Positions 6,040 through 57,676 of a DNA stretch of 64,000 bases are shown piece after piece. The stretch spans positions 5,056,001 through 5,120,000 of the forward strand of contig OY761158.1 of assembly GCA_963664405.1 (NCBI GenBank), read 5' to 3'. The first letter of the stretch is position 1, and every line of letters begins with the position of its first letter. A program made the translations under genes and the position numbers. The stretch comes from Thermoanaerobaculia bacterium. GTDB taxonomy: Bacteria > Acidobacteriota > Thermoanaerobaculia > Multivoradales > Multivoraceae. The notes under the pieces are model-generated. The model was given only the letters and a program-made list of their open reading frames with translations. It was not told the origin of the DNA and made no database searches.

Positions 6040-6072
6040 AAGAGCATTGTCGCCGCCCCGCCCAAGTGTGAC
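6040..6072 (-). promoter_or_regulatory. ECF-type promoter motif, copy 1 (upstream of 5974 operon)
   Basis: Minus strand GTCACACTT-GGGCGGGGCGGC-GACAAT-GCTCTT (12-nt spacer). Confidence 0.75.
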
Positions 6073-6101
6073 GGCGTTCTGCCGGGAAAGGCCGGGCGCC
6101 C

Positions 6102-6148
6102 CCGGCTAGGTGCGGCCGGCTAGGTGCGGCCGGCTAGGCCCGGCCGGA
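6102..6148. repeat. 14-bp tandem repeat (ccggctaggtgcgg) x ~3 between back-to-back promoter motifs
   Basis: ccggctaggtgcgg-ccggctaggtgcgg-ccggctaggcccgg-ccgg read directly. Confidence 0.85.
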
Positions 6149-6153
6149 GGTTC

Positions 6154-6186
6154 TGTCACACTTCGGGCCCACGCGACAAGACCTAT
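6154..6186 (+). promoter_or_regulatory. ECF-type promoter motif, copy 2 (upstream of DUF4956/CotH genes)
   Basis: T-GTCACACTT-CGGGCCCACGC-GACAAG-ACCTAT (11-nt spacer, one mismatch). Confidence 0.65.
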
Positions 6187-6247
6187 ATTGGACGTATGAA
6201 TCGGGTGCCGGTGCTCTTCATGCGCTACCAGCGCCGGCGTTGGGTAG

Positions 6248-14527: not shown

Positions 14528-14561
14528 ATGAGTATTGTTACAGGGGCTCCAAAGTGTGACA
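14528..14561 (-). promoter_or_regulatory. ECF-type promoter motif, copy 3 (upstream of cytochrome c operon)
   Basis: Minus strand T-GTCACACTT-TGGAGCCCCTGT-AACAAT-ACTCAT (12-nt spacer). Confidence 0.72.
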
Positions 14562-14715: not shown

Positions 14716-14729
14716 GGGGGAACCAAAGA

Positions 14730-17315: not shown

Positions 17316-17466
17316 GGAGGGAGTCCGATGATGGCCAGGAGGGGTGAGATTACTCCTCCAACGCAATAGATAAACTGGTGGCGAGCCGGGCAGGACTCGT
17401 TACGCTCTCTCGCCTTGCCCGAGCGCTGGCGGAAGACAGTCTCTGGCCCTAAGAGAGTGGTGTCCA

Positions 17467-17524
17467 GTCACACTTCGAGCTCCTAGTGACAATACCTAAT
17501 AAGCTCCACGTGACAATACCTAAT
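17467..17524 (+). promoter_or_regulatory. ECF-type promoter motif, copy 4, with duplicated 3' half
   Basis: GTCACACTT-CGAGCTCCTAGT-GACAAT-ACCTAAT followed by agctccacgt-GACAAT-ACCTAAT and an in-frame GTG. Confidence 0.78.
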
Positions 17525-27152: not shown

Positions 27153-27186
27153 TAAGAGAATTGTCGCCGCTCGGCCCAAGTGTGAC
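27153..27186 (-). promoter_or_regulatory. ECF-type promoter motif, copy 5
   Basis: Minus strand GTCACACTT-GGGCCGAGCGGC-GACAAT-TCTCTT; homologous to the 6040-6072 region. Confidence 0.75.
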
Positions 27187-27201
27187 GGCGTCCGAGCGGC
27201 G

Positions 27202-35898: not shown

Positions 35899-36012
35899 GT
35901 ACCCCCGTTCGCGGACTTTGTCATGCAGACTGATGCATCCGTTGGCGAGGTATTGCATGCACTCGGTTTTGGCGAAAAGGGGACTGTGCCCTTGCCCAGA
36001 CTCGAGGCAAGT

Positions 36013-38238: not shown

Positions 38239-40388
38239 CTTACTCGCTGCAGCGCCGCACGGGTGAGAATGCGCAACTGGTCCACGCCGTCGCCGCCGGC
38301 TCGAGTATCGACGATGATCTTCTTCCCGCCCTCGAGCACCTTCCAGCCATCGAAGTCGGGCTCACCGACCAGCGTTCCGCGATCGCTCGAAGTCCCGAAG
38401 TCGGGGTCGGCAAAGGCGAGAAAGTCACTGCCGCTCAAGCTCGCCGCGCCCGCGGCCACGCCCACGATGGGATCATCGAGCTCGATCTCCACTCCGCCGA
38501 GGTCGGTCGCAGCCTTCGGGGCGAAGTGAAAGAGATAGCTGTGGACGACCGTACCCGAGGGTATCGTCGCTCCCGCCGGAAGGTTACCGGCATCGTAGGC
38601 GGTGGCGGTACCGTCGCTGTCGACCCTCAGGTCCTCTTCGAGGGTCGCGAACTGCCGTTCGACCACCAGCTCCGGCCGGTCGGCGGCGGTGCGGCGACTC
38701 GCCGACAGATCGTCGGGGACGGTAGGGTCGCCGATATCGCCAAGAATGTCGACGCTCTCGGCTGCCGCGATGCGGGTGTCGAAGTCGGCGCCGGCGTAGC
38801 TTGCGGCGGACTCGACTTCGAACCACCGGGTGATCTGCTCCTGGAGCGAGGCAAAGAGGCTCTGGATCTCCGCCGGCTTGGAGGCGATGTCGGCGCTGGT
38901 GGCGACAGGGGTATCCTCCCGCGGGTCTTCGAGCAGGTCGTAGAGCTCCCAATCCCTGCCGCTGGTCACGGAGATCAACTTGTAGCGCTCGTCCATGATC
39001 GAGCGATCGCCGCCGACCTGGCTCAAACCCCGCCCACCGCGACCCCGGCCGGCGCTGTCGCAGTCGTCGGGCTCGCCCTCGCCGCGCACGGGAACGCGGT
39101 CTCCACAGTTGTCGAACTCGATGCGCTTGGAGCGCCGCGCCGTACGATCGCCGAAAAGAACTTCGGTCATCGACTCGCCGTCCAGCGGGCGCGCGTCGGG
39201 CATCTCCACTCCCCAAATGTCCGCGAGCGTCGGCAGGTAGTCGCTGGTGATCATCGGCGTATCGGTAGTGCCGGGGGTGATGCGACCCGGCCACTCGATG
39301 ATGCCAGGCACCCGCACCCCACCCTCCCAGATCGAGCCCTTGAAACCACGAAGGCCACCCTTACCCTCGCTCTTGTAGTCCATCCTCACCGAGCCCGAGA
39401 GACCGTTGTCGGAGGTGAAGGTCACCAGGGTGTCTTTCTCGATGCCACGACTTCGCAGGTACGCCCGCAAGCGGCCGATCTCCTTATCCATGGCGGTGAT
39501 GCCGGAGTAGTAGCGGGCCTCGTACTCGTTCCACGTCGACTGCTCTTCGGGCGTGTAGAACTCGTCCAGGGTGGCCTGGTCGAGGCGATGCGGCACATGC
39601 GGGGGGTGAAACCAGATGACGGCGAGAAAGGGGCGGCCGGCGGCGGTGGCATCGTCGATGAATCGCATCGCTTCGCGCACCAGGATCGCCGAGGCGTCGC
39701 CGCGCAGCTCCGCGGCGTCGGGATCGACGTGCTCTCCCGGGCCGGTGTAGTAGCGACCGCCGTGAAAGTTACCTTCGCTGGGAAGGGGGCCCAGCGGATT
39801 CCCCTTCATCGGCTCGAAGGTCGGCAGTGCCTGCTCGCTGGCGAAGACGCGGTCATAGCCGTGGCTCCAGGGAGGCGAGTAGAACTCACCACCATTCCTG
39901 TCCTGGAGCGTCTTGGAGAGATCGCCGAGGTGCCACTTGCCGAAGTGCCCGGTCATATAGCCCTGCGTCTTGGCGATCTCGGCGAGGGTCAGCTCGAGGT
40001 TCCTCATCCCCCCGCTGTAGGCCATCTCGATGGCGTTGCGCCGCGGCGCGCGGCCGGTGATGAAAGAGGCGCGGGTCGGGCTGCAGTTCGACCCGGCCGA
40101 GTACATGCGATGAAACTTGAGCCCGGCTTGGGCCATCGCCGCCAGCTCGGGGGTCTTGAGCTCGGGGTGGCCCGGGTAGACATCGCCGGGGGCGCGCTCC
40201 TGGGCGTACTCGACATCACCCCAGCCCTGATCGTCGCTCAACATCAAGATGATGTTGGGCCGCGACAGAAGCGACGATGCCTGCTCGGACGAAGACGCAG
40301 CCTCCTCGGCCGGCGGCGCCGCGCAACAGGTGAGTGCGACGGCGAGCAACAGGATCAGCGACTGCAGAGGTGTGGTTCCAACGCGCAT
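38235..40388 (-). CDS. Sulfatase lipoprotein with extra C-terminal domain, paralog D
   Basis: VALTCC lipobox-like; RPNIILMLSDDQGWGD; CSPTRASFITGR; RBS before ATG 40388. Confidence 0.92.
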   Translation of the reverse strand: MRVGTTPLQSLILLLAVALTCCAAPPAEEAASSSEQASSLLSRPNIILMLSDDQGWGDVEYAQERAPGDVYPGHPELKTPELAAMAQAGLKFHRMYSAGSNCSPTRASFITGRAPRRNAIEMAYSGGMRNLELTLAEIAKTQGYMTGHFGKWHLGDLSKTLQDRNGGEFYSPPWSHGYDRVFASEQALPTFEPMKGNPLGPLPSEGNFHGGRYYTGPGEHVDPDAAELRGDASAILVREAMRFIDDATAAGRPFLAVIWFHPPHVPHRLDQATLDEFYTPEEQSTWNEYEARYYSGITAMDKEIGRLRAYLRSRGIEKDTLVTFTSDNGLSGSVRMDYKSEGKGGLRGFKGSIWEGGVRVPGIIEWPGRITPGTTDTPMITSDYLPTLADIWGVEMPDARPLDGESMTEVLFGDRTARRSKRIEFDNCGDRVPVRGEGEPDDCDSAGRGRGGRGLSQVGGDRSIMDERYKLISVTSGRDWELYDLLEDPREDTPVATSADIASKPAEIQSLFASLQEQITRWFEVESAASYAGADFDTRIAAAESVDILGDIGDPTVPDDLSASRRTAADRPELVVERQFATLEEDLRVDSDGTATAYDAGNLPAGATIPSGTVVHSYLFHFAPKAATDLGGVEIELDDPIVGVAAGAASLSGSDFLAFADPDFGTSSDRGTLVGEPDFDGWKVLEGGKKIIVDTRAGGDGVDQLRILTRAALQRVR

Positions 40389-40395
40389 GCCTTCC

Positions 40396-42420
40396 TCATT
40401 TCTCGTTCGGCAGGGCGAACGCCACCACCTGCGCGATTTCCGGCTCACCGCGCAATCCCCTGCCGCGCACCGTGCCACCCGCCGGCACGACGATGTACTG
40501 GCGGCCCTCCTGCATGTAGGTCATCGGCACGCCATGCAAGGTCGCCTCGGTCTCCACCTCCGCCAGCACCTTCCCGGTGGCCTTGTCGTAAGCCTGGAGG
40601 TAGCTGCCTTTGGCCCCCGGAGCGTCCCAGCTCGCCCACTTCGGCACATAGGTGATGAGCAGCGTGCGGGTGATCAGAAACCCGCCCTCCCGGTTGCCGC
40701 TCGAGTGGCGACTTCCCAGCGGGCCGAGATTCAGGTGCTTGATGGCAGGGTGGTCGGTCGGGCCCTCGCCGAGGGGCACCATCCAGGCGTGCTCACCGGT
40801 TTTGAGATCGATGGCCGTGATGCGCCGGTAGGGAGGCTTGAGGAGTGGCAGCCCCTGCGGCCCTCTCCCACCGCCACCACGGCTCACCCATCTCCACTCG
40901 CTGCGCGTCGGGTCCGGTGGCGCGACCGCCAGGGCGGTGGGCTGCGTCGCCGACTGTACGTAGAGGATGCCGGTCACGGGATCGAGAGAGGCCCCGGGAT
41001 GGTTCGCTCCGCCCGCCATTCCCGGCACCGACAGCGCCCCCGTCTTGCCCCCTTCCTCCTTGACGATGGGAGGAAGGAACATCGGTCCAAGCACGAGCTT
41101 CTTAGCGATCTCGAGCGCCTCCTGCCTCAGCTCGGGGGTGAAGTCGATCAGATCGTCGACGGTCGCGCCCTGGCGATCGAAAGCCGCCGGCTTGGTGGGA
41201 AAAGGTTGGGTGGCGGCCGTCCACTCACCTGGCACCGTGGTCTGGGGAACCGGACGCTCTTCGATCGGCCAGATCGGCTCCCCCGTAACCCGGTCGAAGA
41301 CGTAGGTGAACGCCGTTTTCGACACCTGGGCCACGATCTTGCGGAGCTTGCCCTCGATCACCACATCGAGGAGATTGGGGGCCGAGGCGATATCCCAGTC
41401 CCAGATACCGTGATGCACCCCCTGGAAGTGCCAGATGCGCTCGCCGGTCTCGGCGTCGAGGCAGAGCAGGCTCTCGGCGTAGAGGTTGTCGCCGGGTCGA
41501 TGGCCACCCCAGAGATTGCCGGTCGGCGTAGTGGTGGGGATGTAGACATAGCCTAGCTCTTCGTCGCCGGCCATCGCTCCCCACACGTTGGTGCCGCCCA
41601 GCCACTTCCAGGAATCGTTGTGCCAGGTCTCGGTGAACTCCTCGCCCTCTTGCGGAATGGTGTTGAAGCGCCACTTCTGCTTGCCGGTGCGCACGTCGTA
41701 AGCACGCACGTGTCCGGGAGGGAGGCCAGACTTATTGGCGGGCGCGTCGGCGATTCTCGAGCCTACGATGTAGGTGTCGCGGATCACGATCCCCGGCGAG
41801 CCGGCGCTGATGTCGCGCAGAACGATCTCTTCGCGCCCCAGCATGTCGCGCGACATGTCGACGATGCCGTCTTCGCCGAAGGCCGGGTCGGGTTTGCCGG
41901 TCGCAAGGTCAAGGGAGATCAGCTGCTTGCCACCGGTGGCGAAAATGAGGCGCTCCTCCTCGCCGTCGGTCCAGTACTCGAGGCCCCGGGGAGTGGCTCC
42001 ATAGCCCTGCGCCAGCTCATAGCTCTTCGGGTCGTAGACCCACAGCTCCTCACCCGTGCCGGCGTCGAGAGCAGCGATCAGCCAGCGATTGGTCGCCATG
42101 TAGACCCGGCCATCGATCATCAGCGCCGAGCCCCTGAAGGTGCCCGACCCGTCGTCTGCCCCGCCACGAGTGGGTGAGGATCCGGCGAGCGCGCTAAGGC
42201 GGTGATCGGCAGATTCCCAGGCCCAGGCCAGCTCGAGCTTGGGGAAGTTGGCTGCGTCGATCTGATCGAGCGCCGAGTAGCGGGTAAAGGCGTGGTCGCC
42301 ACCATGGTGACGCCATTCCGCGTCAGCCGCTCCTGGCTGCGCTGAAGCGGAAGTCGCCGTAAACACGCAGATCAGCGCGGGTATCAGCATGCCTCGCGTC
42401 GATGGTCGCCTCACGCTCAT
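40396..42420 (-). CDS. PQQ-dependent dehydrogenase (GDH-like), paralog 3
   Basis: RYSALDQID, GDNLYAESLLCLDA, HHGIWDWD, GVPMTY. Confidence 0.9.
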   Translation of the reverse strand: MSVRRPSTRGMLIPALICVFTATSASAQPGAADAEWRHHGGDHAFTRYSALDQIDAANFPKLELAWAWESADHRLSALAGSSPTRGGADDGSGTFRGSALMIDGRVYMATNRWLIAALDAGTGEELWVYDPKSYELAQGYGATPRGLEYWTDGEEERLIFATGGKQLISLDLATGKPDPAFGEDGIVDMSRDMLGREEIVLRDISAGSPGIVIRDTYIVGSRIADAPANKSGLPPGHVRAYDVRTGKQKWRFNTIPQEGEEFTETWHNDSWKWLGGTNVWGAMAGDEELGYVYIPTTTPTGNLWGGHRPGDNLYAESLLCLDAETGERIWHFQGVHHGIWDWDIASAPNLLDVVIEGKLRKIVAQVSKTAFTYVFDRVTGEPIWPIEERPVPQTTVPGEWTAATQPFPTKPAAFDRQGATVDDLIDFTPELRQEALEIAKKLVLGPMFLPPIVKEEGGKTGALSVPGMAGGANHPGASLDPVTGILYVQSATQPTALAVAPPDPTRSEWRWVSRGGGGRGPQGLPLLKPPYRRITAIDLKTGEHAWMVPLGEGPTDHPAIKHLNLGPLGSRHSSGNREGGFLITRTLLITYVPKWASWDAPGAKGSYLQAYDKATGKVLAEVETEATLHGVPMTYMQEGRQYIVVPAGGTVRGRGLRGEPEIAQVVAFALPNEK

Positions 42421-44519
42421 CTACCCACCGGTAGGGCAAACGCCACCAGCTCCGCCGGTTCCGCTGTGACCGCTTGGCCCTCTCTGCCTCGACCCATCAG
42501 GGCTCTGCCGCCGGGCTTGCCGCCACCGGGAACCACGATGTACTGGCGACCTCGATGCCTGTAGCTGATAGGCACCCCGTGGAGCGTCATGTCGGTCTCA
42601 ACCTCCGCCAGCACCTTGCCGGTGGCTTTGTCATAAGCGGTGAGGTAGCTCCCATTCGCCGTCGGAGCGTCCCAGCTCTCCCACTTCGGCACGTGGGTGA
42701 TGACAAGAGTCTTGGTGACCAGAAGCCCGCCCTCTCGGGTGCCGCTCGAGATGCGGCTCCCCAGATAGCCGAGATCGAGATGGGCGATGGCCGGGTGGTC
42801 GGTCGGGCCCTCGCCCAAAGGCGCCTGCCACGCGTGCTCCCCGGTCTTGAGATCGATCGCCGTGATCCTCCGGTAGGGAGGCTTGAGCAGCGGCAACCCT
42901 TGAACTGCCGCACCGAAGAGTGAGTACTCCGTACCCCTGTTCAGCGGTGCATGCTTCTTGACATAGCGAAAATCGCTGCGCGCGGGATCCGATTCCCCCA
43001 GGCCCCAGGCGCCGGCCTGCGTCGTCGACTGCACATAGAGGACCCCGGTCTCCGGATCGTGAGAGGCGCCCGGGTGATTGGCTCCGCCGCCGGCGCTGGG
43101 CAGGACGATGGTACCGAGCTTGCCTCCCTCGCCGGTGAGGATGGTCGGAGTGAAGATCGGCCCGATGACGAAGTCCTTGACGATCTCGAGCGCCTCGGCT
43201 CTGAGCTCCGGGGTGAAGTCGATGAGATCGTCGACGGTTATGCCCTGCTGATCGAAGGCCGGCGGCTTGGTCGGAAAGGGCTGGGTCGGTGAGAGCTTCT
43301 CGCCGGGAACCGTCGACGGCGCCACCGGTCGCTCTTCGATCGGCCATATGGGCTCGCCGGTGACCCGATCGAAGATGTAGGCGAAAGCGGTCTTCGACAC
43401 CACCGCCACCACCTTTCTGAGTCGGCCGTCGACCACCACGTCGAGAACATTGGGTGCCGAGGCGATGTCGTAGTCCCAGATGCCGTGATGCACGGTTTGA
43501 AAGTGCCAGACACGCTTGCCCGTCTCCGCTTCGACGCACACCACGCTCTCGGCGAAGACATTGTCGCCGTGGCGGTCGCCGCCCCAGTAGTCGCTCGACG
43601 GGGTCGAGGTGGCGAAGTAGACATGGCCAAGCTCCTCGTCGGCAGCGAGCGGCGCCCACACATTGGAGTTGCCCATCCACTTCCAGGAGTCGTTCTCCCA
43701 GGTCTCGGTGAAGTCCTCGCCCTGTTCGGGGATGGTGTTGAAGCGCCACTTCTGCTCACCGGTTCGCACATCGTAGCCGCGCACGTGGCCGGGAGGGATA
43801 TTGTGCTTGCGCAGCGGAACATCGAAGATTCTCGAGCCGACGACGTAGGTATCGCCGACCACGATGCCGGGTGAGCCGGCGCTTATATTCTTGAGGAGGA
43901 TCTCTTTGCGACCGAGAAGATCGCGCGACATGTCGACGATACCGTCCTCGCCGAAGGTGGGATCGGGGCTGCCGGTGGCGAGGTCGATCGAGATCAACTG
44001 CTTGCCGACGGTGGCGAAGAGAATGCGCTCCTCGACCCCATCGGTCCAGTACTCGATACCGCGTGGGTTGCCATACCCCGCCTTGGGGAGCTCATAGCTC
44101 TTGGGGTCGTAGACCCACAGCTCCTCACCTGTGGCGGCATCGAGGGCCGCCAGCTGCCACATCGCAGTCATCATGTAGACCCGGCCGCCGATCATCAGCG
44201 CCGAGCCGGTGAAGCTGCCTGGGGTCTCGCGGATGCTGTGATCGGCGGACTTCCAGCGCCAGGCTACCTCGAGCTGCGGAAAATTTCCGGCGTCGATCTG
44301 GTCGAGCGGTGCGTAGCGGGAAAAGGAGCGGTCACGGCCGTGATGGCGCCACTCGACGTCGCCTTCGCCCGACTGGGCAACGGCACCGGTCGCCAACGAC
44401 GTGGCTACCAGTACCGTCAGCAGGGTACGCTGGCGGCGACGGCAAGCAGATTCCCAGGCCCGACTGGATCGCCGGGAAACGAGCGAAAGCATCAGAGCTA
44501 TTCCTGTCTTGCCGTTCAA
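42417..44519 (-). CDS. PQQ-dependent dehydrogenase (GDH-like), paralog 4
   Basis: RYAPLDQID, HHGIWDYD, PTQPFPTKPP; overlaps both neighbours. Confidence 0.9.
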   Translation of the reverse strand: MNGKTGIALMLSLVSRRSSRAWESACRRRQRTLLTVLVATSLATGAVAQSGEGDVEWRHHGRDRSFSRYAPLDQIDAGNFPQLEVAWRWKSADHSIRETPGSFTGSALMIGGRVYMMTAMWQLAALDAATGEELWVYDPKSYELPKAGYGNPRGIEYWTDGVEERILFATVGKQLISIDLATGSPDPTFGEDGIVDMSRDLLGRKEILLKNISAGSPGIVVGDTYVVGSRIFDVPLRKHNIPPGHVRGYDVRTGEQKWRFNTIPEQGEDFTETWENDSWKWMGNSNVWAPLAADEELGHVYFATSTPSSDYWGGDRHGDNVFAESVVCVEAETGKRVWHFQTVHHGIWDYDIASAPNVLDVVVDGRLRKVVAVVSKTAFAYIFDRVTGEPIWPIEERPVAPSTVPGEKLSPTQPFPTKPPAFDQQGITVDDLIDFTPELRAEALEIVKDFVIGPIFTPTILTGEGGKLGTIVLPSAGGGANHPGASHDPETGVLYVQSTTQAGAWGLGESDPARSDFRYVKKHAPLNRGTEYSLFGAAVQGLPLLKPPYRRITAIDLKTGEHAWQAPLGEGPTDHPAIAHLDLGYLGSRISSGTREGGLLVTKTLVITHVPKWESWDAPTANGSYLTAYDKATGKVLAEVETDMTLHGVPISYRHRGRQYIVVPGGGKPGGRALMGRGREGQAVTAEPAELVAFALPVGR

Positions 44520-44953
44520 CGCCTGCCAGCCGGCTCGGTCACGTCAGCCCCGTCTCTCGGCGCGCCGGTGCCCGAAGACCCCACGAAGAGCTTTTTCCCG
44601 TCAGGGTAGGTCACGCTGCGCCCGTTCATCTTGTTCGAGCGATCCTTGGCGTGGAAGCCCTCGACCGTGATCTCGGTTCCCGGCGGCAGCGAGTTCTTGG
44701 TGAACCCGCGACGGAAGAGACTCGGCGGGCTGCCACTCTCGACCATCCAGCTCTCGACCGAGCCGTCTTCCCGAACGATGTCGAGATGGATCCAAGCATG
44801 GGGATTGATCCACTCCATCTTGGTGACCTTGCCGGTCAGCTCGACCGGGCTCTCGGCATCGAACTCGGCCGCGAACGCATGGTGCCCCAGAACCGGGACG
44901 GCGACCAGGGCGAGAAGCAGAGCAGCTGCAGCGATGATGGTGTTATTTCGCAC
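44516..44953 (-). CDS. DUF6152-family small secreted protein
   Basis: HHAFAAEFD...LTGKVTKMEWINPHAWIHLD...WMVE...PG.EITVEG; AGGAGG RBS before GTG 44953. Confidence 0.85.
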   Translation of the reverse strand: MRNNTIIAAAALLLALVAVPVLGHHAFAAEFDAESPVELTGKVTKMEWINPHAWIHLDIVREDGSVESWMVESGSPPSLFRRGFTKNSLPPGTEITVEGFHAKDRSNKMNGRSVTYPDGKKLFVGSSGTGAPRDGADVTEPAGRR

Positions 44954-44970
44954 TTTCTTTACCTCCTTGT

Positions 44971-45816
44971 TCATTCGGAATCTCCGGCCTTCCACACACC
45001 CTTGCTCAGGTGCCCGAACATCAGCTCTTCCGCAAAGGGAACGCATTTGAACTCGAGCAGCTGCATATTGGGCTCGACCCGACGATAGAGCGGGAAGCTC
45101 ACCTTCCACGGGCGGGTATAGGTCTGCGGATCAGTGATCGTTGCCTCGTAGTGAATGTGGTTCGGGCCCCGCGCCGTATAGCGCTCGACGACGTGAATCT
45201 CGATGCTGTGGTGATTGCCCGAGCGATCGAGCCAGGTATCGGGGACCTGGGCGCTGACGTCGATCACCAGAGTCTCCCCCTCCCAATGACCGCGAGAGTG
45301 CCCCATCCAGTTGTCACCGGGGGCCTCGAAATCGGGTCGGTTCATGTACACGATGCGGCTGGCATCGGCGAACTCGTAAGCGAAGATGACGTTCTGCGCC
45401 GACTGGATGATCTGAAATGGGTAGGGCATGTAGTTGGCGCGTGGGATCCCAGGCATGAAGCATTTGATCGCCGGATCCAGCTTCCACCACCGCTTCAGGT
45501 TCTCCTGTTGCTTCGCTCGCGCCGCGGGGCTGTAGGGGATCTCCCCGCCTTCGACGATGCCCAGCCCAGCCGGAACGGCACCAAGTGCTCCGAGCTCGAC
45601 GATCGGGCCCATCCGAGCAGAGTGGCCTTCGATGTCCCAGTGCGCCGCGCCCATCGCCTGCCAGATACCGTTGAGGTCCGGCTCGCCTTCAGAGGTGCGC
45701 GGGGCTCTGTAGTCCTGGGCGAGAACGGACCCTGCGGCCATCACCAGCGCCAACGCCACTACCGCAGGAGCCATGTCTTCTCTGCGATTCGGTTTCTTCA
45801 TATTCTCGTTTCTCAC
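44971..45816 (-). CDS. Uncharacterised secreted protein of the same family (variant C-terminus LEFKC), paralog 2
   Basis: PRTSEGEPDLNGIW; DPAIKCFMPGIPR; WMGHSRGHWEGETLVID; VVERYT; ITDP.TYTRPW. Confidence 0.82.
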   Translation of the reverse strand: MRNENMKKPNRREDMAPAVVALALVMAAGSVLAQDYRAPRTSEGEPDLNGIWQAMGAAHWDIEGHSARMGPIVELGALGAVPAGLGIVEGGEIPYSPAARAKQQENLKRWWKLDPAIKCFMPGIPRANYMPYPFQIIQSAQNVIFAYEFADASRIVYMNRPDFEAPGDNWMGHSRGHWEGETLVIDVSAQVPDTWLDRSGNHHSIEIHVVERYTARGPNHIHYEATITDPQTYTRPWKVSFPLYRRVEPNMQLLEFKCVPFAEELMFGHLSKGVWKAGDSE

Positions 45817-46745
45817 TTGGAATCAGCCTCCGCGGCGGCCGCCTCTTGCTCCGAGACCCGAGCGCCGGAGAGGATATTCGCAAGGTTGTAATTACCTTCG
45901 TGGCAGGCGAACTCGAAAAGCGGCTCGTTCTGCTTTTTGAGCGGTATCATCACCGTCCAGGGCCGGGCCCAGATCAGCGGATCGTCGATGGTCACGTCAT
46001 AGAAGATCAAGTCGGGGGCGATAAGGGTGAAGCGCTCGGTCACTACCAGCTCCTTCGAATTGAGGGAGTGAAACCACCCCTGCGGAGTTCCTCGCTGGTG
46101 GGTTCCGGCATACCCCTTGGGCAGGTAGTTGGTGGTCTCGACGACCAGTGATTCGCCCTCCCAGCGGCCGCGCGAGTCGCCGAGCCACAACTGGATGTCA
46201 GGATCGGGGTGGGGCGATCCATCGAGGAGAATGACGCGTGCCTCGTGAATCCACTCCATGACGATGACGACGTGGTCCTTGTTCTGGACCAGCTTGTAGT
46301 ACTGGTTGAAGTTCGCCCGGACCGGCGCTCCCAGGGTCACGCAACGCTCGCCCAAGGAGCGATCAGCCCAGGTGTCGGCCGGATGCTCCTCGAGATAGGC
46401 CTGGAGCGCATCCCAGTCCTCCTGTGCCTGCGCGGTGAGAGCTGGGATGCCACCCTCGGGCGGGTCGGTAAGCAACTCAGACAACTTGCGGCCGCCGCGG
46501 GGACCGCCAGGCTCGACCCACACTCCGCGCAGATCGGGATGGCCGTCCGAGGTGCGAGGTACCGTCCACCCAGGAGGCGCCCCGTGTCGTTGGGCCAAAG
46601 CGGCCCGGTCCTCCGCGGTGGCCCTGGCCGGCACGGTGATCCGCCCCTCGCCGCGGCCACGGCCGCGCTGAGCAGAGCTCAGGCCGGGCAGCAGTAGGAC
46701 GATGGCGACGGCGGCCGCTAGGAATCGTGAGAACCGTGGTCGCAT
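45813..46745 (-). CDS. Uncharacterised secreted 'FACHEGN' family protein, paralog 3
   Basis: PRTSDGHPDLRGVW; LGERC; WLGDSRGRWEGESLVVETTN; FEFACHEGNY; RBS before ATG 46745. Confidence 0.82.
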   Translation of the reverse strand: MRPRFSRFLAAAVAIVLLLPGLSSAQRGRGRGEGRITVPARATAEDRAALAQRHGAPPGWTVPRTSDGHPDLRGVWVEPGGPRGGRKLSELLTDPPEGGIPALTAQAQEDWDALQAYLEEHPADTWADRSLGERCVTLGAPVRANFNQYYKLVQNKDHVVIVMEWIHEARVILLDGSPHPDPDIQLWLGDSRGRWEGESLVVETTNYLPKGYAGTHQRGTPQGWFHSLNSKELVVTERFTLIAPDLIFYDVTIDDPLIWARPWTVMIPLKKQNEPLFEFACHEGNYNLANILSGARVSEQEAAAAEADSK

Positions 46746-46789
46746 CGACGGTCTCCTCGGTACGAATAATGGCTTCATCAGCAAAGAAC

Positions 46790-47710
46790 TCATCTGGAGT
46801 CGGCGGCCGCGGCGGTCTTCGCGGCCATGGCCGCGGCGGCCTCTTGCTCGCTGACGCGAGCGCCATTGAGGATATTCGCCATGTTGTAGTTGCCCTCGTG
46901 GCAGGCGAACTCGAAGAGCGGCTGGTTCCGCTTGGTCATCGGAATCTTCAAGGTCCACGGCTTCGTCCAGATCGCGGGGTCGTCGATCGTCACTTCATAG
47001 AGCATCCACTCCGGACCGACCCGAGTCAGGCGCTCGGTCACCACCAGATCTTCCGAATTGAGAGAGTGAAACCAAGACTGCGGAGTTCCCCTTTGGTAGG
47101 TGCCGCGGGAGCCCTTGGCCAGATAATTGGTGGTTTCGACGACCAGCGAGTCGCCCTCCCAGCGGCCCCGCGAGTCGCCGAGCCACAGCTTGATGTCGGG
47201 ATCGGGGTGAGGAGACCCATCGAGTGGGATGACCCGCGCCTCGTGTATCCACTCCATGAGGAAGACGACATGGTCCTTGTTCTGGACCAGCTTGTAGTAC
47301 TGCGTAAAGTTCGCCCACATCGGCGCTCCCAGGGTCACGCAGCGCTCTCCCAGGGATCGATCCTTCCAGGTGTCTGCCGGATGCTCCTCGAGATACTGCT
47401 GGAGCTCATCCCAGTTCTTCTGCGCCTCGGGGGTGAGAGGCGGGATGCCCTCCGGAGGATCGATGACCATCTGACTCAGCGTGGGCCCGGTACGACCGTT
47501 GTCGGCCCATACCCCCCGAAGATCGGGATGGCCGTCAACGGTGCGCGGTACGCTCCAGCCGGCCGGCGGCGGGGGCGGGTAAACAGGTTCGCGCCCACGT
47601 CTCTGAGCTACGCCAAGGCCCGGCAGAAGTAGAGCGCCGGCGACCGCAGCCGCCAGACAAAGCACAAGGCCCTTACACACTTTGCTCGATCGCTGTTTCC
47701 GCCGAATCAT
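46790..47710 (-). CDS. Uncharacterised secreted 'FACHEGN' family protein, paralog 4 (tandem duplicate of paralog 3)
   Basis: Highly similar to 45813-46745; RBS before ATG 47710. Confidence 0.82.
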   Translation of the reverse strand: MIRRKQRSSKVCKGLVLCLAAAVAGALLLPGLGVAQRRGREPVYPPPPPAGWSVPRTVDGHPDLRGVWADNGRTGPTLSQMVIDPPEGIPPLTPEAQKNWDELQQYLEEHPADTWKDRSLGERCVTLGAPMWANFTQYYKLVQNKDHVVFLMEWIHEARVIPLDGSPHPDPDIKLWLGDSRGRWEGDSLVVETTNYLAKGSRGTYQRGTPQSWFHSLNSEDLVVTERLTRVGPEWMLYEVTIDDPAIWTKPWTLKIPMTKRNQPLFEFACHEGNYNMANILNGARVSEQEAAAAMAAKTAAAADSR

Positions 47711-47855: not shown

Positions 47856-49265
47856 TCAGCGCCCGAGAAACTCCACGCCGATGATCTCGAGCTCGGCCTC
47901 TCTTTCGTCGGTCATGCCGAACCAAGTGAATAGCTCCTTGCCCCAGCGCGACCCCTCGGAGCCGCGGAAATCGGCAAGCTGCACCACAATGTCGAACTCA
48001 TCTTCGACCCGGATCTGGCGACTCAGGTCTCGACCGCTGGCTCTTCCGCCAAGCTCGCCCAATCCCAGGCCGATCACCAGATCGGCAGGCTGCTTGACCC
48101 GCCCGCGGACACGGAAGCTGCCACCCTCGGCCAGCACGACGGGAGCCTGCTCGAGTGAGACATCCAGCACCGCCATGTAGCGAACATCCCACTCAGAATC
48201 AGGTCGAACACGCCGCGGGGCAGCGCGCAGCCCCCCCTCGTCCTCGAGCCGTGAAGCGTAGGCCTCGAACTCACGCCCGGCTTGATCACGGGTCATCCGG
48301 CCGGTCTCGACAGAGCGCGCGAGCCGGCGACGATATGCGGTCAGATAGTCGATCCACTCTCCGTGGGTCGCCTCTTCCTCGACATCCGCCCGCCAGAAGT
48401 GCGTCGCCTCATCGCGCTCCACAACACGGAGATCGTCTTCGACGTCAAGCGAGGCAACGGTCCGATGCGCGGCTGGCACGTCGACCGTGCGCCCGTCACT
48501 CAGGCGCTCGACGCGCACGCGGCCGTCGCTCACCGCCAGCGTCGTCCGTGAAGCGTCGGCCGACACCCGACACCGCGTGGACCCCAACCGCAGCTCCGCC
48601 GTCGGTGTCACCATGACCAGCGGCCGCCCCGCTGGCTGGGGCGTGACGTCGGCCGACAGACTGCCTCGGCGAAGATGCACGATCTTCTGTCGGTCTGCCG
48701 AAATCGTGATCGTCGACTGGCCGCTAATCGTCACGGCGGTTTTGTCGGGGAAGCGAACCGTCGCCCACGCATCCGGCGCCAGCGACTCCAGCGTGCCACC
48801 CGACAACCGCCGACCGCCGGTCGGCGCCGTATCGACCTGGCCGCCGTCGCCTGTCCACTGAATCGGTCCCGAGACCTCGGTCAGCTCGGCAACCGTCGCC
48901 TCCGCCGTGGTCTGCCAGAGCAGGCCTCCAGTACCGACGAAGCCGAGCAGCGCCGCCGCCGCGACACCCCAGGGCAACAGTCGCCGAGGCCGACGCAGAG
49001 AGCCGCCGCGTCGGATTCCCGCCCGCACCTCCGACACGAAAGGATCCTCGAGGATTCGGCCCTGCAGCGCGGAGACGAAAAGCGCGCTATCGCGAAGCTC
49101 ATCCTCGGCGAGCGCAATCATCTCCGAGGTCTCCAGCTGCTCCTGGATCTCCCGGAGACGCGCGGGATCCCCTTTCGACAGCCGGACCAGCTCGGTTATC
49201 TCGTCGGGCGAGATCTCGCCGTCGAGCAAAGATCCCATCAGATCTTGGAAGCGCTCGTCGCTCAT
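47856..49265 (-). CDS. FecR-like transmembrane anti-sigma factor
   Basis: N-terminal LLDGEIS..E..EL anti-sigma helix; TM LLPWGVAAAALLGFVG; FecR-like L.RGSLSADVTPQPAGRPLVMVTPTAELR.GST; directly downstream of the ECF sigma gene. Confidence 0.82.
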   Translation of the reverse strand: MSDERFQDLMGSLLDGEISPDEITELVRLSKGDPARLREIQEQLETSEMIALAEDELRDSALFVSALQGRILEDPFVSEVRAGIRRGGSLRRPRRLLPWGVAAAALLGFVGTGGLLWQTTAEATVAELTEVSGPIQWTGDGGQVDTAPTGGRRLSGGTLESLAPDAWATVRFPDKTAVTISGQSTITISADRQKIVHLRRGSLSADVTPQPAGRPLVMVTPTAELRLGSTRCRVSADASRTTLAVSDGRVRVERLSDGRTVDVPAAHRTVASLDVEDDLRVVERDEATHFWRADVEEEATHGEWIDYLTAYRRRLARSVETGRMTRDQAGREFEAYASRLEDEGGLRAAPRRVRPDSEWDVRYMAVLDVSLEQAPVVLAEGGSFRVRGRVKQPADLVIGLGLGELGGRASGRDLSRQIRVEDEFDIVVQLADFRGSEGSRWGKELFTWFGMTDEREAELEIIGVEFLGR

Positions 49266-49266
49266 C

Positions 49267-49797
49267 TCAGGTCTCAGTCGCCAACCTTTCCTCGACGCAG
49301 ATGCGAAGCTGACGGCGAACCCTCACTAGCATCTGGCGTACGGCGGCGGCCGACTTCCCCAACAGGCTCCCCAGCTCGGGCGCCGAGAGGCCGTCACGAT
49401 AGCGGCCCCGAACCACCTTCCGACTTGCCGGTGCTAGCTCACCCAGGCAGGCTCGAATGGCGTCGACGGCGAGCGGCTCGACGCGCTCCTCGGTGGCCTC
49501 TCTGTGCCGCCACAGCAACAGGTCGGTCAGTTCGGTATGCAGAATCCGTTGCCGTCGCGCATGTTTACGGATCTCGTTGCGCACGATGTTGGCGGCGATC
49601 CCTCGCACCCATTTTCCGAAGTCTCGCGATGGATCGAACGAGCTCCACTCGCGGTAGGCGGTCATGAAGGCTTCCTGAGCGATGTCGTCGACCCAGTCGG
49701 TGTCGACACCCAGCGAGCGAACGAAGGCCCGCACCCGCACGTGGTGCTCGCTCACCAGGAGCTCGAAACGATGATACTGCTCCGCCGACTCACCCAT
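49267..49797 (-). CDS. ECF sigma-70 factor (Planctomycete/Verrucomicrobia-like type)
   Basis: VDDIAQEAF..AY...FDPSRDFGKWVRGIA.N region 2; IRACLGEL....RKVVRGRYRDGLS..EL...LGKS..AVRQML.RVRRQLR.CVE region 4. Confidence 0.93.
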   Translation of the reverse strand: MGESAEQYHRFELLVSEHHVRVRAFVRSLGVDTDWVDDIAQEAFMTAYREWSSFDPSRDFGKWVRGIAANIVRNEIRKHARRQRILHTELTDLLLWRHREATEERVEPLAVDAIRACLGELAPASRKVVRGRYRDGLSAPELGSLLGKSAAAVRQMLVRVRRQLRICVEERLATET

Positions 49798-49800
49798 CTC

Positions 49801-49834
49801 TTAGGTATTGTCCCCTGGGACCCGAAGTGTGACA
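49801..49834 (-). promoter_or_regulatory. ECF-type promoter motif, copy 6 (putative autoregulatory, probably leaderless transcript)
   Basis: Minus strand T-GTCACACTT-CGGGTCCCAGGG-GACAAT-ACCTAAGAG-ATG; the sigma start codon is 9 nt after GACAAT. Confidence 0.82.
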
Positions 49835-49906
49835 AGGAGCCCAGATCGAAGCAGCGGGCATCGCCGCCTGAGAACTACTCGCCGGTCCGAATTCTCGGAC
49901 ACCCCG

Positions 49907-51247: not shown

Positions 51248-51284
51248 TTTCGTGGGCTTATTGGGTCAATTAGGTCTAGCATAT

Positions 51285-51995: not shown

Positions 51996-52039
51996 ACCGC
52001 AAGCCGCTCACTCACGGGATCTCGGGCGGTATCAGTCCG

Positions 52040-53608: not shown

Positions 53609-53662
53609 GGAAATGCTCCGTAATCAGAAGGGAGTCGGAGTAAGGCGATTCGCCACCCGTCA

Positions 53663-53695
53663 TTGGGTATTGTCACCAGGGACAGAAAGTGTGAC
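53663..53695 (-). promoter_or_regulatory. ECF-type promoter motif, copy 7
   Basis: Minus strand GTCACACTT-TCTGTCCCTGGT-GACAAT-ACCCAA. Confidence 0.8.
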
Positions 53696-53722
53696 CGACG
53701 CTAGGCGTGCTCGCCCCTCCAC

Positions 53723-54118: not shown

Positions 54119-54124
54119 CGCGGC

Positions 54125-54373: not shown

Positions 54374-54543
54374 AAAATTCCTTACCCGATAGACACTATC
54401 ACCGAGATAGTAAGGAGGGGGGGGCCGCCAACTCACCGTGACGGGAGCTGTGCCTTGGTGAATGAGTAGATGCGAGTCAGTGCTCTAGCCCGGGTTGATC
54501 CAGGACGATGGGTCGCCCTCAAGTTCTCCTTCATCGCACCAAG

Positions 54544-54571
54544 AAAAAGGGGAGGGCCTAGGCCCTCCCCT
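54544..54571 (-). terminator. Rho-independent terminator downstream of the TonB receptor gene
   Basis: Minus strand AGGGGAGGGCCTAGGCCCTCCCC-TTTTTCTT: GC stem plus U tract, ~25 nt after the stop codon. Confidence 0.85.
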
Positions 54572-54595
54572 GAACTGCCGCTCCGTTGTGCTACC

Positions 54596-57370
54596 TCAGA
54601 AGCGAAGAGCTACGTTGAAACGGTACTCCTGCGGCCTCTGGTAGGCAATGTCGCCGCCACCTCTTCCGGTCGGGCGGCCCGTAACTGTGTTGACAAACAG
54701 CTGGGAATCACCGTCGAGCGCGTTGGCAAGCTCGGCTCCCAGCTGAATCTCGTACTTCCCTCGGATCGGCGGGAAGATCCAGCTGGCATTGAGATTGAGC
54801 TCCGTCGAGGTGTCGAGCTGCTGAGAGGCCTGGGGTTGGAGGTACTCCGAGACACGAATCCGTGCGTTCGTCAGCGGATGGCGAAGCGAGGCGGTCCGTG
54901 TCATCTGCCATAGTCGGCCCGTGCGAGCGCGGTAGTGGGCACCCGTATTCAGCGTGTGCTTGCCGATCTGCCAGCGCTTGATGCCGAGGAGATTGAAGAC
55001 CTCCGGAAACTCCGAATTGTTGGCGAACTGGCCAGGTTTATTGAGGGTGTTCACATTGTTACGCCCGCCTTCGAGGCCGCCGATGCCGGCCAGGTAAGCG
55101 GTCCCTTCGGTGCCCTTCGCCTCGCCTACATAGAGGTTGGAGATCAGCGTCCAGTTGTTGCGGAAGTTGCGGTTGAGCTCGAGGATGAAGCCTTCGTGCT
55201 CGCGCGTCAGGCCCGAGCGGGTGGGCACTCCGTGCAGAGCGGATTGCGCCGCCACCTCCCCCGCGGTCCAGTTGCGCACGTCCAAGAAGATATTACCGTC
55301 CGCGTCATACTGTCGGTTCGTTTCCCAGACATCGTCATTCTCGCTGGCGGTGAACATGACTTTGGCGACCCAGTTGCGGTGGAACTGCCAATCGACACCG
55401 ATCGTGTAGGCGTCCATGTACTCGGGGTCGAGAAGCCTCGTCGCCTCCCGACCGGCACTGGCAACGATGCTGCTGACCAAGATGTCATACTCTTGTGTCA
55501 CCGGATTCCAATCGAAGACCTGGCGGGTGTTGGTGCCATTCGAACCTTGGTCGAAGTCATCCGACAGGCCCATGTTGAAGAGATTGAGGTAGCGCCCGGC
55601 GGTACCGCGCACCAGCAGGTTGCCGTCACCCTTGACGTCGTACACCACACTCAGCCGAGGCGCCAGCTCATCGTAGTCGTTGACCTGTTCCCCGAGGTTG
55701 TTGTCCATCGACTGACCCTCGAGACGCAGTCCCGCGGTAATGACCCATTTGTCTCCGATGTCGATGCGGTCCTGGACGAAGAGAGTGTTGAGCTCGCTCT
55801 CGCGGCTGAACAAGCCCCCATCCGGCGGCGCGTAGATCGTCGTGTCTCCGGGTGTCACAAAGCCGCCAGGCAAGTCATAGCCGAAGCCAAACCCGCGGAA
55901 CTCCTGCTCGGGCCAGTTTCGGGTATCGAGGCCCAATATGTGGCGCTCGGCGCCGACCCTGAGCTCGTGGCTGCCCAGAAAGATCGTCCCGTAGGCATTG
56001 AACTGCTCGCGGGGACCGTCCGTGAAGCGACCGGTTGTACCACCAACAGTGCAGCCGTTGAAAAAGAGGTCGGTGCCGTCGTCGAAATAGCGAAAGTTGT
56101 TGCTATCCGGGGTATTCGACGGTGCGCTGCTGTCGATCGACTTGGGATTGATGCAGTTGTCGTTGCGAACATCTTCGCTGTCGGCAGCCCGGAACTCCAG
56201 AAAGACTTTCGGGCTCACCGCCCAGTTCCACGACGCCGTATTCAACTCGGCCGTCTCCTGCCGCCCATTGAGAGTGTAAATGTCCCCCGTTCGGTTGCCC
56301 CCCCCGACGCGGAAGGCCGGCGTGCGAAGGTAGGTCGCAGCGATCTGATGCGCGTCGCCAGGCTGAAAGTTGACCTTGGCGAGCGTCGACTCGCCCTCGT
56401 AGCTCCAATCGAAAACAGGGTCCGAGATGACATCCGGATTGGAATTGCCGCTGGCCCCGCGGATCCTGTTGTCGGACAGGGCAGAGTGGGCGACGAAGAA
56501 CCACGCACGATCCTTGTAGATCGGGCCGCCGAGAGCGGTCTCGTAGTTGTTGATAATTTTATCGGGACCATTGAGATCGGGAAATTCTCGGAACTCACCG
56601 ACCCACGCCTGGTTCTGGGCGACATAGTAGAAGTCGCCGTGGAACTGATTGGTGCCCGACTTGATCACCGTATTGACGCTCGAAGTCTGGGTGCGCCCGT
56701 ACTCGGCGCCGCGCCCCTGGGTCTGCACCTCGGTCGAGGCGACCTGAGTCGTCGCCATTCTGAACTTGTACACCCCGTAGTTGGAGGTGACCTGACTGAC
56801 ATCGACGCCGTCGATGTTCACCGTGCCGCCGTCTCGAGGCCCACCCATGAAGCTGTTGAGCCAATCTTGCTGCTTGGAGCCGGAATTGCCAGGCAGAACC
56901 GCCAAGCTATTGACGTAATGACGGGAGATGAACGTCGTCAACTCCGCCACCTCTGCATCGATCCTTGCCACCGCCCCGGGCTCGTACTTGTTGATCATCG
57001 GCGCTTCGGAGGTGACGGTGATCTGCTCCGCGGTCCCACCGCCAAGGGTGAGGTTGACACCACGGCGCTGACCGGGGGACAGATTCAGCGAAGTCTCGGC
57101 TTCACCCAGCCCCTCCAGCTCGGCGTTGACGGTGTAGGCCCCATCTATCAGTAGGGTAAAGCGATACTTCCCGTCGGCATCGGAGCGCTCGGTTTTCTCG
57201 CCCTGCGGTCCCACCAAATTCACGGTGGCGCCGGGCAGGGCATCGCCCTGGGCGTCGATCACGCGGCCGTCGATGGTTCCGGTCCCCGGACCGTCCGCCC
57301 ATAGCGGCATGTTCACGCAGACGAGGATGGCGAAAAGCCAAATACTGGATCTGAGGGTGTTCCTATGCAT
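54596..57370 (-). CDS. TonB-dependent receptor with N-terminal carboxypeptidase-regulatory-like domain (Oar-like)
   Basis: GTIDGRVID.QG.ALPGATV; GAEYGR...VNTVIKSGTNQFHG; LGGPI.KDRAWFF; LFVQDR; APRLSVVYD; terminal Phe. Confidence 0.92.
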   Translation of the reverse strand: MHRNTLRSSIWLFAILVCVNMPLWADGPGTGTIDGRVIDAQGDALPGATVNLVGPQGEKTERSDADGKYRFTLLIDGAYTVNAELEGLGEAETSLNLSPGQRRGVNLTLGGGTAEQITVTSEAPMINKYEPGAVARIDAEVAELTTFISRHYVNSLAVLPGNSGSKQQDWLNSFMGGPRDGGTVNIDGVDVSQVTSNYGVYKFRMATTQVASTEVQTQGRGAEYGRTQTSSVNTVIKSGTNQFHGDFYYVAQNQAWVGEFREFPDLNGPDKIINNYETALGGPIYKDRAWFFVAHSALSDNRIRGASGNSNPDVISDPVFDWSYEGESTLAKVNFQPGDAHQIAATYLRTPAFRVGGGNRTGDIYTLNGRQETAELNTASWNWAVSPKVFLEFRAADSEDVRNDNCINPKSIDSSAPSNTPDSNNFRYFDDGTDLFFNGCTVGGTTGRFTDGPREQFNAYGTIFLGSHELRVGAERHILGLDTRNWPEQEFRGFGFGYDLPGGFVTPGDTTIYAPPDGGLFSRESELNTLFVQDRIDIGDKWVITAGLRLEGQSMDNNLGEQVNDYDELAPRLSVVYDVKGDGNLLVRGTAGRYLNLFNMGLSDDFDQGSNGTNTRQVFDWNPVTQEYDILVSSIVASAGREATRLLDPEYMDAYTIGVDWQFHRNWVAKVMFTASENDDVWETNRQYDADGNIFLDVRNWTAGEVAAQSALHGVPTRSGLTREHEGFILELNRNFRNNWTLISNLYVGEAKGTEGTAYLAGIGGLEGGRNNVNTLNKPGQFANNSEFPEVFNLLGIKRWQIGKHTLNTGAHYRARTGRLWQMTRTASLRHPLTNARIRVSEYLQPQASQQLDTSTELNLNASWIFPPIRGKYEIQLGAELANALDGDSQLFVNTVTGRPTGRGGGDIAYQRPQEYRFNVALRF

Positions 57371-57642
57371 GTGTTACTTCTCCCGGATTCTCGACCCCGG
57401 AACAAGGTCTACGTCGAGCCTCACTGGCAAGCCGGCCGCAGCCTTGGCTTCGAAGTCAGTTTACGACAGCTGCCTCACTTCCTTGCAAAATCTATTCCTT
57501 AACAACATACGGTATACCGTGCCCTCATCAGGCTCCCTGAACACACTATGTTGTGGTTCGAGATTGAAACCATGGAACACAATATTGAACAATATTCATT
57601 GAGTTGAACCGACTCCGATCGCCGTATGCACTAACCCCTTTG

Positions 57643-57676
57643 CTAGGTATTGTCACGTGGAGCTCAAAGTGTGACA
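57643..57676 (-). promoter_or_regulatory. ECF-type promoter motif, copy 8 (upstream of TonB receptor)
   Basis: Minus strand T-GTCACACTT-TGAGCTCCACGT-GACAAT-ACCTAG. Confidence 0.8.

What the first reader, a model, noticed from the sequence alone, without database searches (positions are those of the whole stretch)
6040..57676. Eight-copy bipartite promoter motif defines a self-contained ECF sigma regulon
Seen: GTCACACTT-N12-GACAAT(ACCTAA) occurs at 6040-6072(-), 6154-6186(+, N11), 14528-14561(-), 17467-17499(+), 27153-27186(-), 49801-49834(-), 53663-53695(-) and 57643-57676(-). Every copy is intergenic and points into a gene. Spacer sequence varies while spacer length is conserved. One copy ends just before the ATG of the ECF sigma gene. 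Copies 1 and 5 come from one duplication, so about seven are independent. Known: ECF sigmas usually autoregulate through a fixed-spacing -35/-10 pair. Inference: the sigma/FecR pair at 47856-49797 controls the TonB receptor, four of five sulfatases, four PQQ dehydrogenases, cytochromes c, DUF1592/DUF1552, CotH/DUF4956, two endostatin-like genes and the exported dikinase. That links many unknown-function families in one envelope-sensing response.
Basis: partly seen in the sequence, partly recalled or inferred. Interest (0 to 1): 0.9.

Follow-up and report, generated by a model that had tools for sequence, protein, structure and literature searches.

The report
Imported sigma factor's private promoter set
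The eight repeated two-part DNA signals are very probably the promoters of a neighbouring alternative sigma factor of a planctomycete-like type that is foreign to this bacterium's phylum, and they place it in front of a sulfatase, dehydrogenase and outer-membrane receptor gene set that close relatives carry without this regulator.

Summary
All eight copies are real and far above chance; 8 of about 12 genuine genome copies lie in this window. The motif behaves as the -35/-10 promoter of the ECF sigma at 49267-49797 (TIGR02989 family). It sits directly upstream of 54 of 56 homologous sigma genes, mostly 7-10 nt before the start codon (leaderless). A distant sigma clade keeps the right box and swaps the left, which argues against a dimeric operator. 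The anti-sigma is FecR-like with a predicted carbohydrate-binding-module fold, so a glycan signal is likelier than envelope stress.

The regulon is not self-contained: four copies lie elsewhere, and one window target is frameshifted. The host looks acidobacterial; this sigma was found in 0 of 400 phylum genomes. Two relatives carry 12 of the target genes as one block with neither sigma nor motif, and PVC genomes with the sigma show only 0-2 sites. That suggests regulon rewiring, direction unresolved.

No RNA evidence. The circuit type is ordinary, and this scan has noted similar ECF regulons on other DNA (no sequence match to this one). The motif was not found in the papers I could search.

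The parts
6040..6073 (-). Promoter copy 1; predicted start about 6036-6038; 65 nt to DUF1554-like gene 5090-5974, then lipoprotein 4101-5090 and PPDK_N-domain protein 2050-4110
   Evidence: start site inferred
6154..6186 (+). Promoter copy 2 (short spacer); precedes a short remnant of a VTC-domain gene start, then DUF4956 (about 6287-6991) and CotH (6988-8445)
   Evidence: the paralogous copy at genome 1230919 precedes intact VTC-DUF4956
14528..14561 (-). Promoter copy 3; 36 nt to cytochrome c 14042-14491, then PQQ dehydrogenase 11819-13948, unknown exported protein 10671-11795, sulfatase 8473-10689
   Evidence: sequence confirmed by short-read contigs
17466..17523 (+). Promoter copy 4 (17466-17499) plus a 24-nt tandem duplication carrying a second right box; precedes DUF1592 (about 17525-20056) and DUF1552 (from 20056)
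27154..27187 (-). Promoter copy 5, duplicate of copy 1; target DUF1554-like gene 26209-27086 is frameshifted
49801..49834 (-). Promoter copy 6, autoregulatory; ends 3 nt before the sigma ATG (leaderless; predicted start 49797-49799)
49267..49797 (-). ECF sigma factor, 176 aa, TIGR02989 (Rhodopirellula/Verrucomicrobium family)
   Evidence: (136.1 bits, cut-off 124.55)
47856..49265 (-). Putative anti-sigma, 469 aa: helical N-terminus, one hydrophobic helix (about 101-116), FecR beta-domain, CBM-like beta-sandwich (286-469)
33853..47710 (-). Nine co-oriented genes behind the anti-sigma: three unknown exported proteins, DUF6152, three PQQ dehydrogenases, two 740-aa sulfatases; mostly overlapping stop/start
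   Evidence: gaps 145, five of -4, 7, -4, 114; single transcript inferred
53663..53696 (-). Promoter copy 7; 54 nt to Tat-signal sulfatase 52040-53608
57643..57676 (-). Promoter copy 8; 272 nt to outer-membrane beta-barrel (TonB-type) receptor 54596-57370, followed by a strong hairpin and T-run at 54548-54571

Best explanation
The motif is the -35/-10 promoter of the ECF sigma encoded at 49267-49797. Sigma region 4 reads the left box and region 2 reads the right box across a 16-17 bp spacer. The sigma is held at the membrane by the FecR-like protein next door, whose periplasmic CBM-like domain probably senses a glycan, plausibly a sulfated one. On release, the sigma boosts its own leaderless mRNA and transcribes about eight units here (some 25 genes, one broken) plus two or three elsewhere: an uptake receptor, exported sulfatases, PQQ dehydrogenases with a cytochrome c, and exported unknown proteins. 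This reads as a periplasmic desulfation and oxidation response. Shown: motif, position, conservation and covariation. Inferred: transcription itself, operon extent, anti-sigma action and the signal.
For: Motif directly upstream of 54 of 56 homologous sigma genes, against 7 of 168 control stretches; start codon 7-10 nt after the right core in 45 of 54. A distant 23-row sigma clade with similar region 2.4 but different region 4.2 keeps the right box and has a different conserved left box in 21 of 22 scored. The residue at the RpoE-Lys56 position tracks the variable base of the right box (T/V/I with A 50 of 50; K/S/A with C 6 of 6; top of 160 columns), a known -10 contact (PMC7776599). Arg at the RpoE-171 position fits C at -31 (0.88 in Dataset S3), and the left box fits Table S1 at -36 to -34. 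Only this one of 24 ECF-like ORFs in the host has both signatures. Motif and sigma co-occur by genome: motif 0 of 40 relatives, sigma 0 of 56 family genomes. Anti-sigma fold: PupR Z 17.0, CBM22/15/11 Z about 10.
Against: No transcript or binding data. The six C-variant cases come from perhaps 2-4 lineages. The published code fits the distant clade only partly, and the -10 register is uncertain by one base. A CBM-like fold shows no function; a complex I assembly protein scores Z 10.0 too. Two copies (27154 and genome 1230956) have a broken or missing target, so some may be remnants. The 16-kb operon has gaps of 145 and 114 nt that could hold other promoters. Relatives keep 12 of these genes without this sigma, so it is not obligatory for them. 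One other host ECF (genome 5642773) has a region 4.2 like that of some left-box-bearing homologs.
Confidence: 0.88

Rival explanations
1. The site is an operator for a dimeric transcription factor that binds the partial inverted repeat formed by the two boxes.
For: The outer hexamers match as a dyad at 4-6 of 6 positions in 9 host copies. A CadC-like OmpR/TPR regulator lies at 57841-59616, beside copy 8.
Against: A perfect dyad in 1 of 9 host and 2 of 24 homolog sites; inner positions show no symmetry. All eight copies are oriented into genes. The left box is swapped while the right is kept in the distant clade. Fixed 7-10 nt distance to start codons. Base variation tracks a sigma region 2 residue.
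Confidence: 0.04
2. The promoter reading is right, but most non-sigma copies are passive remnants spread by local duplication, so the working regulon is small.
For: The window is full of duplications. Copies 1/5, 2/genome 1230919 and 4/8 share history; two copies lack an intact target. PVC genomes show only 0-2 sites.
Against: Both boxes are near-invariant while 30-nt flanks are mostly unrelated, and the copies precede unrelated gene families. Six of eight sit 25-67 nt before a start codon. They mark the starts of units whose genes also cluster in relatives.
Confidence: 0.12
3. The signal comes through the outer-membrane receptor, as in FecA-FecR-FecI cell-surface signalling.
For: The anti-sigma FecR domain resembles PupR. 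The receptor gene carries a copy. Close homologs of sigma, anti-sigma and receptor are recorded on contigs of the same length in another organism.
Against: No STN domain hit on the receptor and no FecR C-terminal hit on the anti-sigma. No such receptor among the neighbours I annotated at 14 homolog loci (66 of 131 ORFs), and none found in 5 PVC genomes that hold the sigma. The receptor ortholog exists in relatives without the sigma.
Confidence: 0.15
4. The motif is a mobile-element end or a short repeat, not a regulatory site.
For: The region is rich in repeats and toxin-antitoxin modules. IS ends in relative G021 contain similar hexamers.
Against: Conserved just before sigma start codons in Planctomycetota, Verrucomicrobiota and Lentisphaerota. 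Spacer and flanks are not conserved. Strand bias towards genes.
Confidence: 0.01

Closest known systems
ECF46 (Casas-Pastor et al. 2021, PMC7826278; supplement passages seen)
   Same: PVC-centred group; one-helix FecR-like anti-sigma in position +1 with an extracytoplasmic carbohydrate-binding-type domain; sulfatases nearby; proposed to sense periplasmic carbohydrate.
   Different: ECF46 anti-sigmas typically carry Laminin_G_3, which was not found here; the sensor fold resembles CBM22/15/11. ECF46 promoters are described as not conserved, whereas this clade has a strongly conserved autoregulatory promoter.
TIGR02989, sigma-70 factor of the Rhodopirellula/Verrucomicrobium family
   Same: Scores above the curated cut-off; nearest named homologs are PVC.
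   Different: Here it is in a genome that looks acidobacterial. I found no paper giving a promoter or regulon for the family.
ECF41 and ECF103 promoters (PMC7826278 supplement)
   Same: Their predicted -35 equals the first seven letters of the left box.
   Different: Different -10 element. ECF41 is controlled by a fused SnoaL domain, absent here; ECF103 is from Firmicutes.
FecI/FecR/FecA and PupI/PupR/PupB cell-surface signalling
   Same: Sigma plus FecR-fold anti-sigma, with a receptor gene among the targets; PupR is the top fold match.
   Different: No STN signalling domain found on the receptor, an extra CBM-like domain on the anti-sigma, autoregulation, and targets unrelated to iron uptake.
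SigX of Pseudomonas as a case of regulatory capture (PMC7776599, passage seen)
   Same: A probably imported ECF with targets beyond those of its donor lineage.
   Different: Here the proposed capture is a local catabolic block, and the direction (gain here or loss in relatives) is unresolved.

Membership tests
Autoregulated ECF (group IV) sigma promoter | Sigma with only regions 2 and 4 | tested here: met
   176 aa; Sigma70_r2 and r4_2; TIGR02937 and TIGR02989 over cut-off
Autoregulated ECF (group IV) sigma promoter | Bipartite motif with fixed spacer upstream of its own gene and of orthologs | tested here: met
   54 of 56 homologs against 7 of 168 controls
Autoregulated ECF (group IV) sigma promoter | Boxes covary with sigma regions 4.2 and 2 | tested here: met
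   Left-box swap in the distant clade; Lys56-position covariation. Few independent events.
Autoregulated ECF (group IV) sigma promoter | Sigma-dependent transcription start just downstream | not testable with these tools
   Needs 5'-end mapping or a reporter assay
TIGR02989 | Score above curated cut-off | tested here: met
   136.1 bits against 124.55
ECF46 | One-helix FecR-like anti-sigma in position +1 | tested here: met
   FecR hit in the +1 gene at 9 of 12 homolog loci whose +1 gene was scanned (none at L016, L019, L040)
ECF46 | Laminin_G_3 domain on the anti-sigma (typical, not universal) | tested here: not met
   No Pfam hit in P0002 or in the 12 +1 genes
ECF46 | Promoter motif not conserved | tested here: not met
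   Motif strongly conserved in this clade
ECF46 | Match to the ECF46 group HMM or clade | not testable with these tools
   Group models are not among the libraries
FecIRA-type cell-surface signalling | FecR-fold periplasmic domain | tested here: met
   PF04773; PupR Z 17.0, rmsd 4.0, 175 aligned
FecIRA-type cell-surface signalling | Receptor with N-terminal STN signalling domain | tested here: not met
   Receptor N-terminus is CarboxypepD_reg; no STN hit at E 0.001. That STN defines transducers is recalled.
ECF41 | Fused C-terminal SnoaL domain | tested here: not met
   Protein ends after region 4

The most novel reading that the evidence does not exclude
A sigma/anti-sigma pair imported from the PVC superphylum, where it has only one or two sites per genome, took over a pre-existing acidobacterial block of sulfatase, PQQ dehydrogenase, DUF1592/1552 and receptor genes. 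Its promoter appeared in front of about ten units, partly by copying of the promoter itself. Sister genomes would show the same block before capture, giving a rare before-and-after view of cross-phylum regulon capture. The clade also offers naturally swapped -35/-10 modules and a new CBM-like sensor domain.
Probability: 0.4. Interest if true: 0.65.

Novelty: new member of a known kind. Interest (0 to 1): 0.48.

Why it matters
It gives a precise, testable promoter and predicted start sites for an unstudied, widespread PVC clade of ECF sigma factors. It ties several families of unknown function (DUF1592/1552, DUF6152, a 51-locus exported family, a 740-aa sulfatase subfamily) to one probable glycan-responsive pathway, backed by both motif and synteny. 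It also supplies a natural test of the sigma-promoter recognition code and, if the gain reading holds, a tractable case of regulon rewiring after transfer between phyla. The circuit type itself is textbook.

Tried and rejected
No RNA holder listed for 44500-54000. Single-sequence fold of the anti-sigma C-terminus was poor (pLDDT 56.5) and was not used. Composition: the window is mostly not atypical in tetranucleotides, so a recent single foreign island was rejected. Decayed motif remnants at the orthologous operon starts of G018 and G021: best scores -1.2 to -5.5, null 95th percentile 0.5, so none. No motif faces the DUF1592 gene next to the sigma in L011. Extra genome hits at 4369124, 1656817, 3110648 and 6551627 lie inside long ORFs, and 6673487 faces against the flanking genes; I treat all as chance. 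General spacer copying among host sites: mean identity 4.7 of 11 against 4.0 among homologs, not convincing except for pairs 1/5 and 4/8. The distant-clade promoter model has one host hit (1815151) with no sigma gene behind it. The sigma-70 and terminator scan of 30001-49900 was at or below chance. The careful tree did not finish; the quick tree was used, and no one-clade test was run. Four look-ups for two planctomycete ECF classification papers (recalled: Jogler 2012, Wiegand 2020) found nothing held. Earlier-findings look-ups by sequence, relatives and family words returned nothing. No complex prediction was run.
Full report
Observation. Six match the literal consensus, against a shuffle mean of 0.01. 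A two-box matrix from six copies finds 13 sites at 19 bits or more in the 6.78-Mb genome, eight of them in this window, and none in two order-5 Markov genomes. Twelve of the 13 lie outside long ORFs, which cover 72.5% of the genome; among weak hits of 12-15 bits, 15 of 35 are inside. A matrix from 42 homolog promoters puts the eight window copies in the top ten. Short-read contigs reproduce copies 3 and 4 without differences; these runs may be the source sample. Four genuine copies lie outside the window: one 86 nt before a paralogous 742-aa sulfatase, one 9 nt before VTC-DUF4956, one facing the 3' end of a gene, and one before a short ORF near IS genes. The copies are less independent than stated, because several share duplication history.

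What reads it. The sigma (P0001) belongs to TIGR02989 and has no host paralog above 32% identity. I collected 98 homologous loci (18, 80 of 121). After dropping six fragment or over-long rows, duplicates and loci without upstream DNA, 54 of 56 homologs scoring 100 bits or more carry the motif upstream, against 7 of 168 control stretches; the misses are L073 and L074. In 45 of 54 the start codon lies 7-10 nt after the right box, so the sigma mRNA is predicted to be leaderless; in the window the gap is 9 nt. Spacer length largely follows the tree: long in the 28-row clade that holds the window sigma, except L045 and L064, and short in most outer groups.

Two natural experiments point to the sigma itself. 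First, a distant 23-row clade shares the region 2.4 signature but has Glu-Ser in place of Arg-Gln in region 4.2. It keeps the right box, and 21 of 22 scored loci have a different conserved left box at the same distance. A dimer binding an inverted repeat would not behave so, and the dyad is perfect in only 1 of 9 host and 2 of 24 homolog sites. Second, among 59 of 63 sites above threshold, the residue aligned to RpoE Lys56 tracks the variable base of the right box: T/V/I with A in 50 of 50, K/S/A with C in 6 of 6, E with A or G. It ranks first of 160 columns, but the six cases come from perhaps two to four lineages. Todor et al. 2020 (PMC7776599; I read part 2 of 7 of the text, passages, the SI PDF and part 1 of 3 of Dataset S3) name this position as a -11/-12 contact and Arg171 as favouring C at -31 (0.88). 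The left box fits their -36 to -34 consensus; Gln at 172 has only a weak preference (0.33). The code fits the distant clade only partly, and the -10 register is uncertain by one base. Of 24 ECF-like ORFs in the host, only this one has both signatures.

Signal. The next gene folds with confidence (pLDDT 86.7, 47 sequences) into a helical N-terminus, one hydrophobic helix, a FecR domain like PupR (Z 17.0) and a C-terminal beta-sandwich like CBM22, CBM15 and CBM11 (Z about 10, rmsd 3.2-3.5). A shared fold shows no function, but with sulfatases as targets a glycan signal is the most likely reading (inference). No STN domain was found on the receptor, so classical cell-surface signalling is less likely.

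Targets. Copy 6 heads sigma, anti-sigma and nine further genes with mostly overlapping joints. Copy 3 heads cytochrome c, a PQQ dehydrogenase, an unknown protein and a sulfatase. Copy 8 heads the receptor, closed by a strong hairpin. Copy 7 probably covers one sulfatase, since about 790 nt containing what reads as an antisense PIN gene follow (my reading of the frame). The target of copy 5 is frameshifted. Four of the five members of the 740-aa sulfatase subfamily lie behind a copy, but the genome holds about 60 sulfatase, 50 PQQ and 29 receptor loci, so the regulon takes a small subset.

Evolution. The host looks acidobacterial: 29 matches to TIGR03436, most over the cut-off (inference). The sigma was found in 0 of 60 relatives, 0 of 56 family genomes and 0 of 400 phylum genomes, and its named neighbours in a quick tree are Planctomycetota and Verrucomicrobiota. 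In seven PVC genomes with the sigma, the motif model found 1, 2, 1, 1, 2, 2 and 0 sites, against 11 in the host; these are incomplete assemblies, only 150 candidates were scored, and the model included several of their promoters. Two near-complete relatives, G018 and G021, carry 12 of the target genes as one 21-22-kb block at 69-86% identity, with no sigma of this clade and no motif. A full-length or near full-length DUF1592 ortholog occurs in 16 of 42 genomes of that genus, none with the sigma. The functional link among these families therefore has independent support, while control by this sigma is lineage-specific. Either the host lineage gained it or the sister genus lost it. For loss: the DUF1592 protein is closer to one beside the sigma in a planctomycete (47.8%) than to host paralogs (35-36%). 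For gain: the receptor family is present in 24 of 24 family genomes and was not found in 5 PVC genomes, and no motif remnants were found.

Known or new. In Casas-Pastor et al. 2021 (PMC7826278; passages of text and of a supplement that was cut when stored), the closest description is ECF46, but its Laminin G domain and unconserved promoter do not match. The -35 of ECF41 and ECF103 equals the start of the left box; the right-box core had no occurrence in the held text. PMC7671368 (passages) shows that ECF transfer between phyla is known. Eight paper searches listed no paper on this clade or motif; I read only the three papers named. Datasets S1 and S2 of Todor et al. and two planctomycete ECF classifications (recalled, not held) could not be seen and may already contain it. 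This scan has noted several similar local ECF regulons on other DNA, none matching by sequence.

Verdict. A well-supported new member of a textbook circuit, with a clean promoter definition, a natural module swap and a plausible case of regulon rewiring. No experimental support yet. Interest 0.48.

Noticed in passing
window 20896: Short-read contigs of runs X2 and X3 lack one base here, so the apparent early stop of DUF1552 is probably an assembly error.
   Followed up: partly
window 14724-15776 (+): A third DUF1554-like gene without a forward motif; its upstream DNA resembles the 3' end of a sulfatase gene. All three genome members of this family are in the window.
   Followed up: partly
window 46790-47710, 45813-46793, 10671-11795: An exported protein family with no Pfam or NCBIfam hit, about 51 loci in this genome, with unnamed Atlas clusters in Acidobacteriota and Pseudomonadota; it ends in a conserved cysteine-containing motif.
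   Followed up: partly
L080-L104 (metagenome loci): A distant ECF clade with its own conserved promoter (same right box, different left box), mostly with leaders of about 30-40 nt; not checked in print.
   Followed up: partly
window 21409-21920: 97% identical partial copy of the DUF3604 gene (27202-28669), a recent duplication fragment.
   Followed up: no
window 29787-31868 and 36034-38124: Two sulfatase genes 95.7% identical in DNA; only the second lies behind a motif copy.
   Followed up: partly
window 23499-25952: AEP-TOTE primase fused to a superfamily 2 helicase, amid several PIN modules and an AbiEii-like gene at 59767-60351.
   Followed up: no
window 13951-14045: Short intergenic repeat with many copies in the genome, between cytochrome c and the PQQ dehydrogenase.
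   Followed up: no
P0144-P0183: Many anti-sigma homologs of about 600 aa carry ankyrin repeats, so the added domain varies within the family.
   Followed up: no
G000:C1:3207503-3207584: ARAGORN calls a tRNA with a CTA anticodon ('Pyl'), and a tRNA-Sec at 3996757; it calls no tRNA between 235 kb and 2.65 Mb. Unverified.
   Followed up: no
L127:15650-16900: An insertion sequence with inverted ends sits between the divergent PQQ dehydrogenase and receptor genes in relative G021.
   Followed up: no
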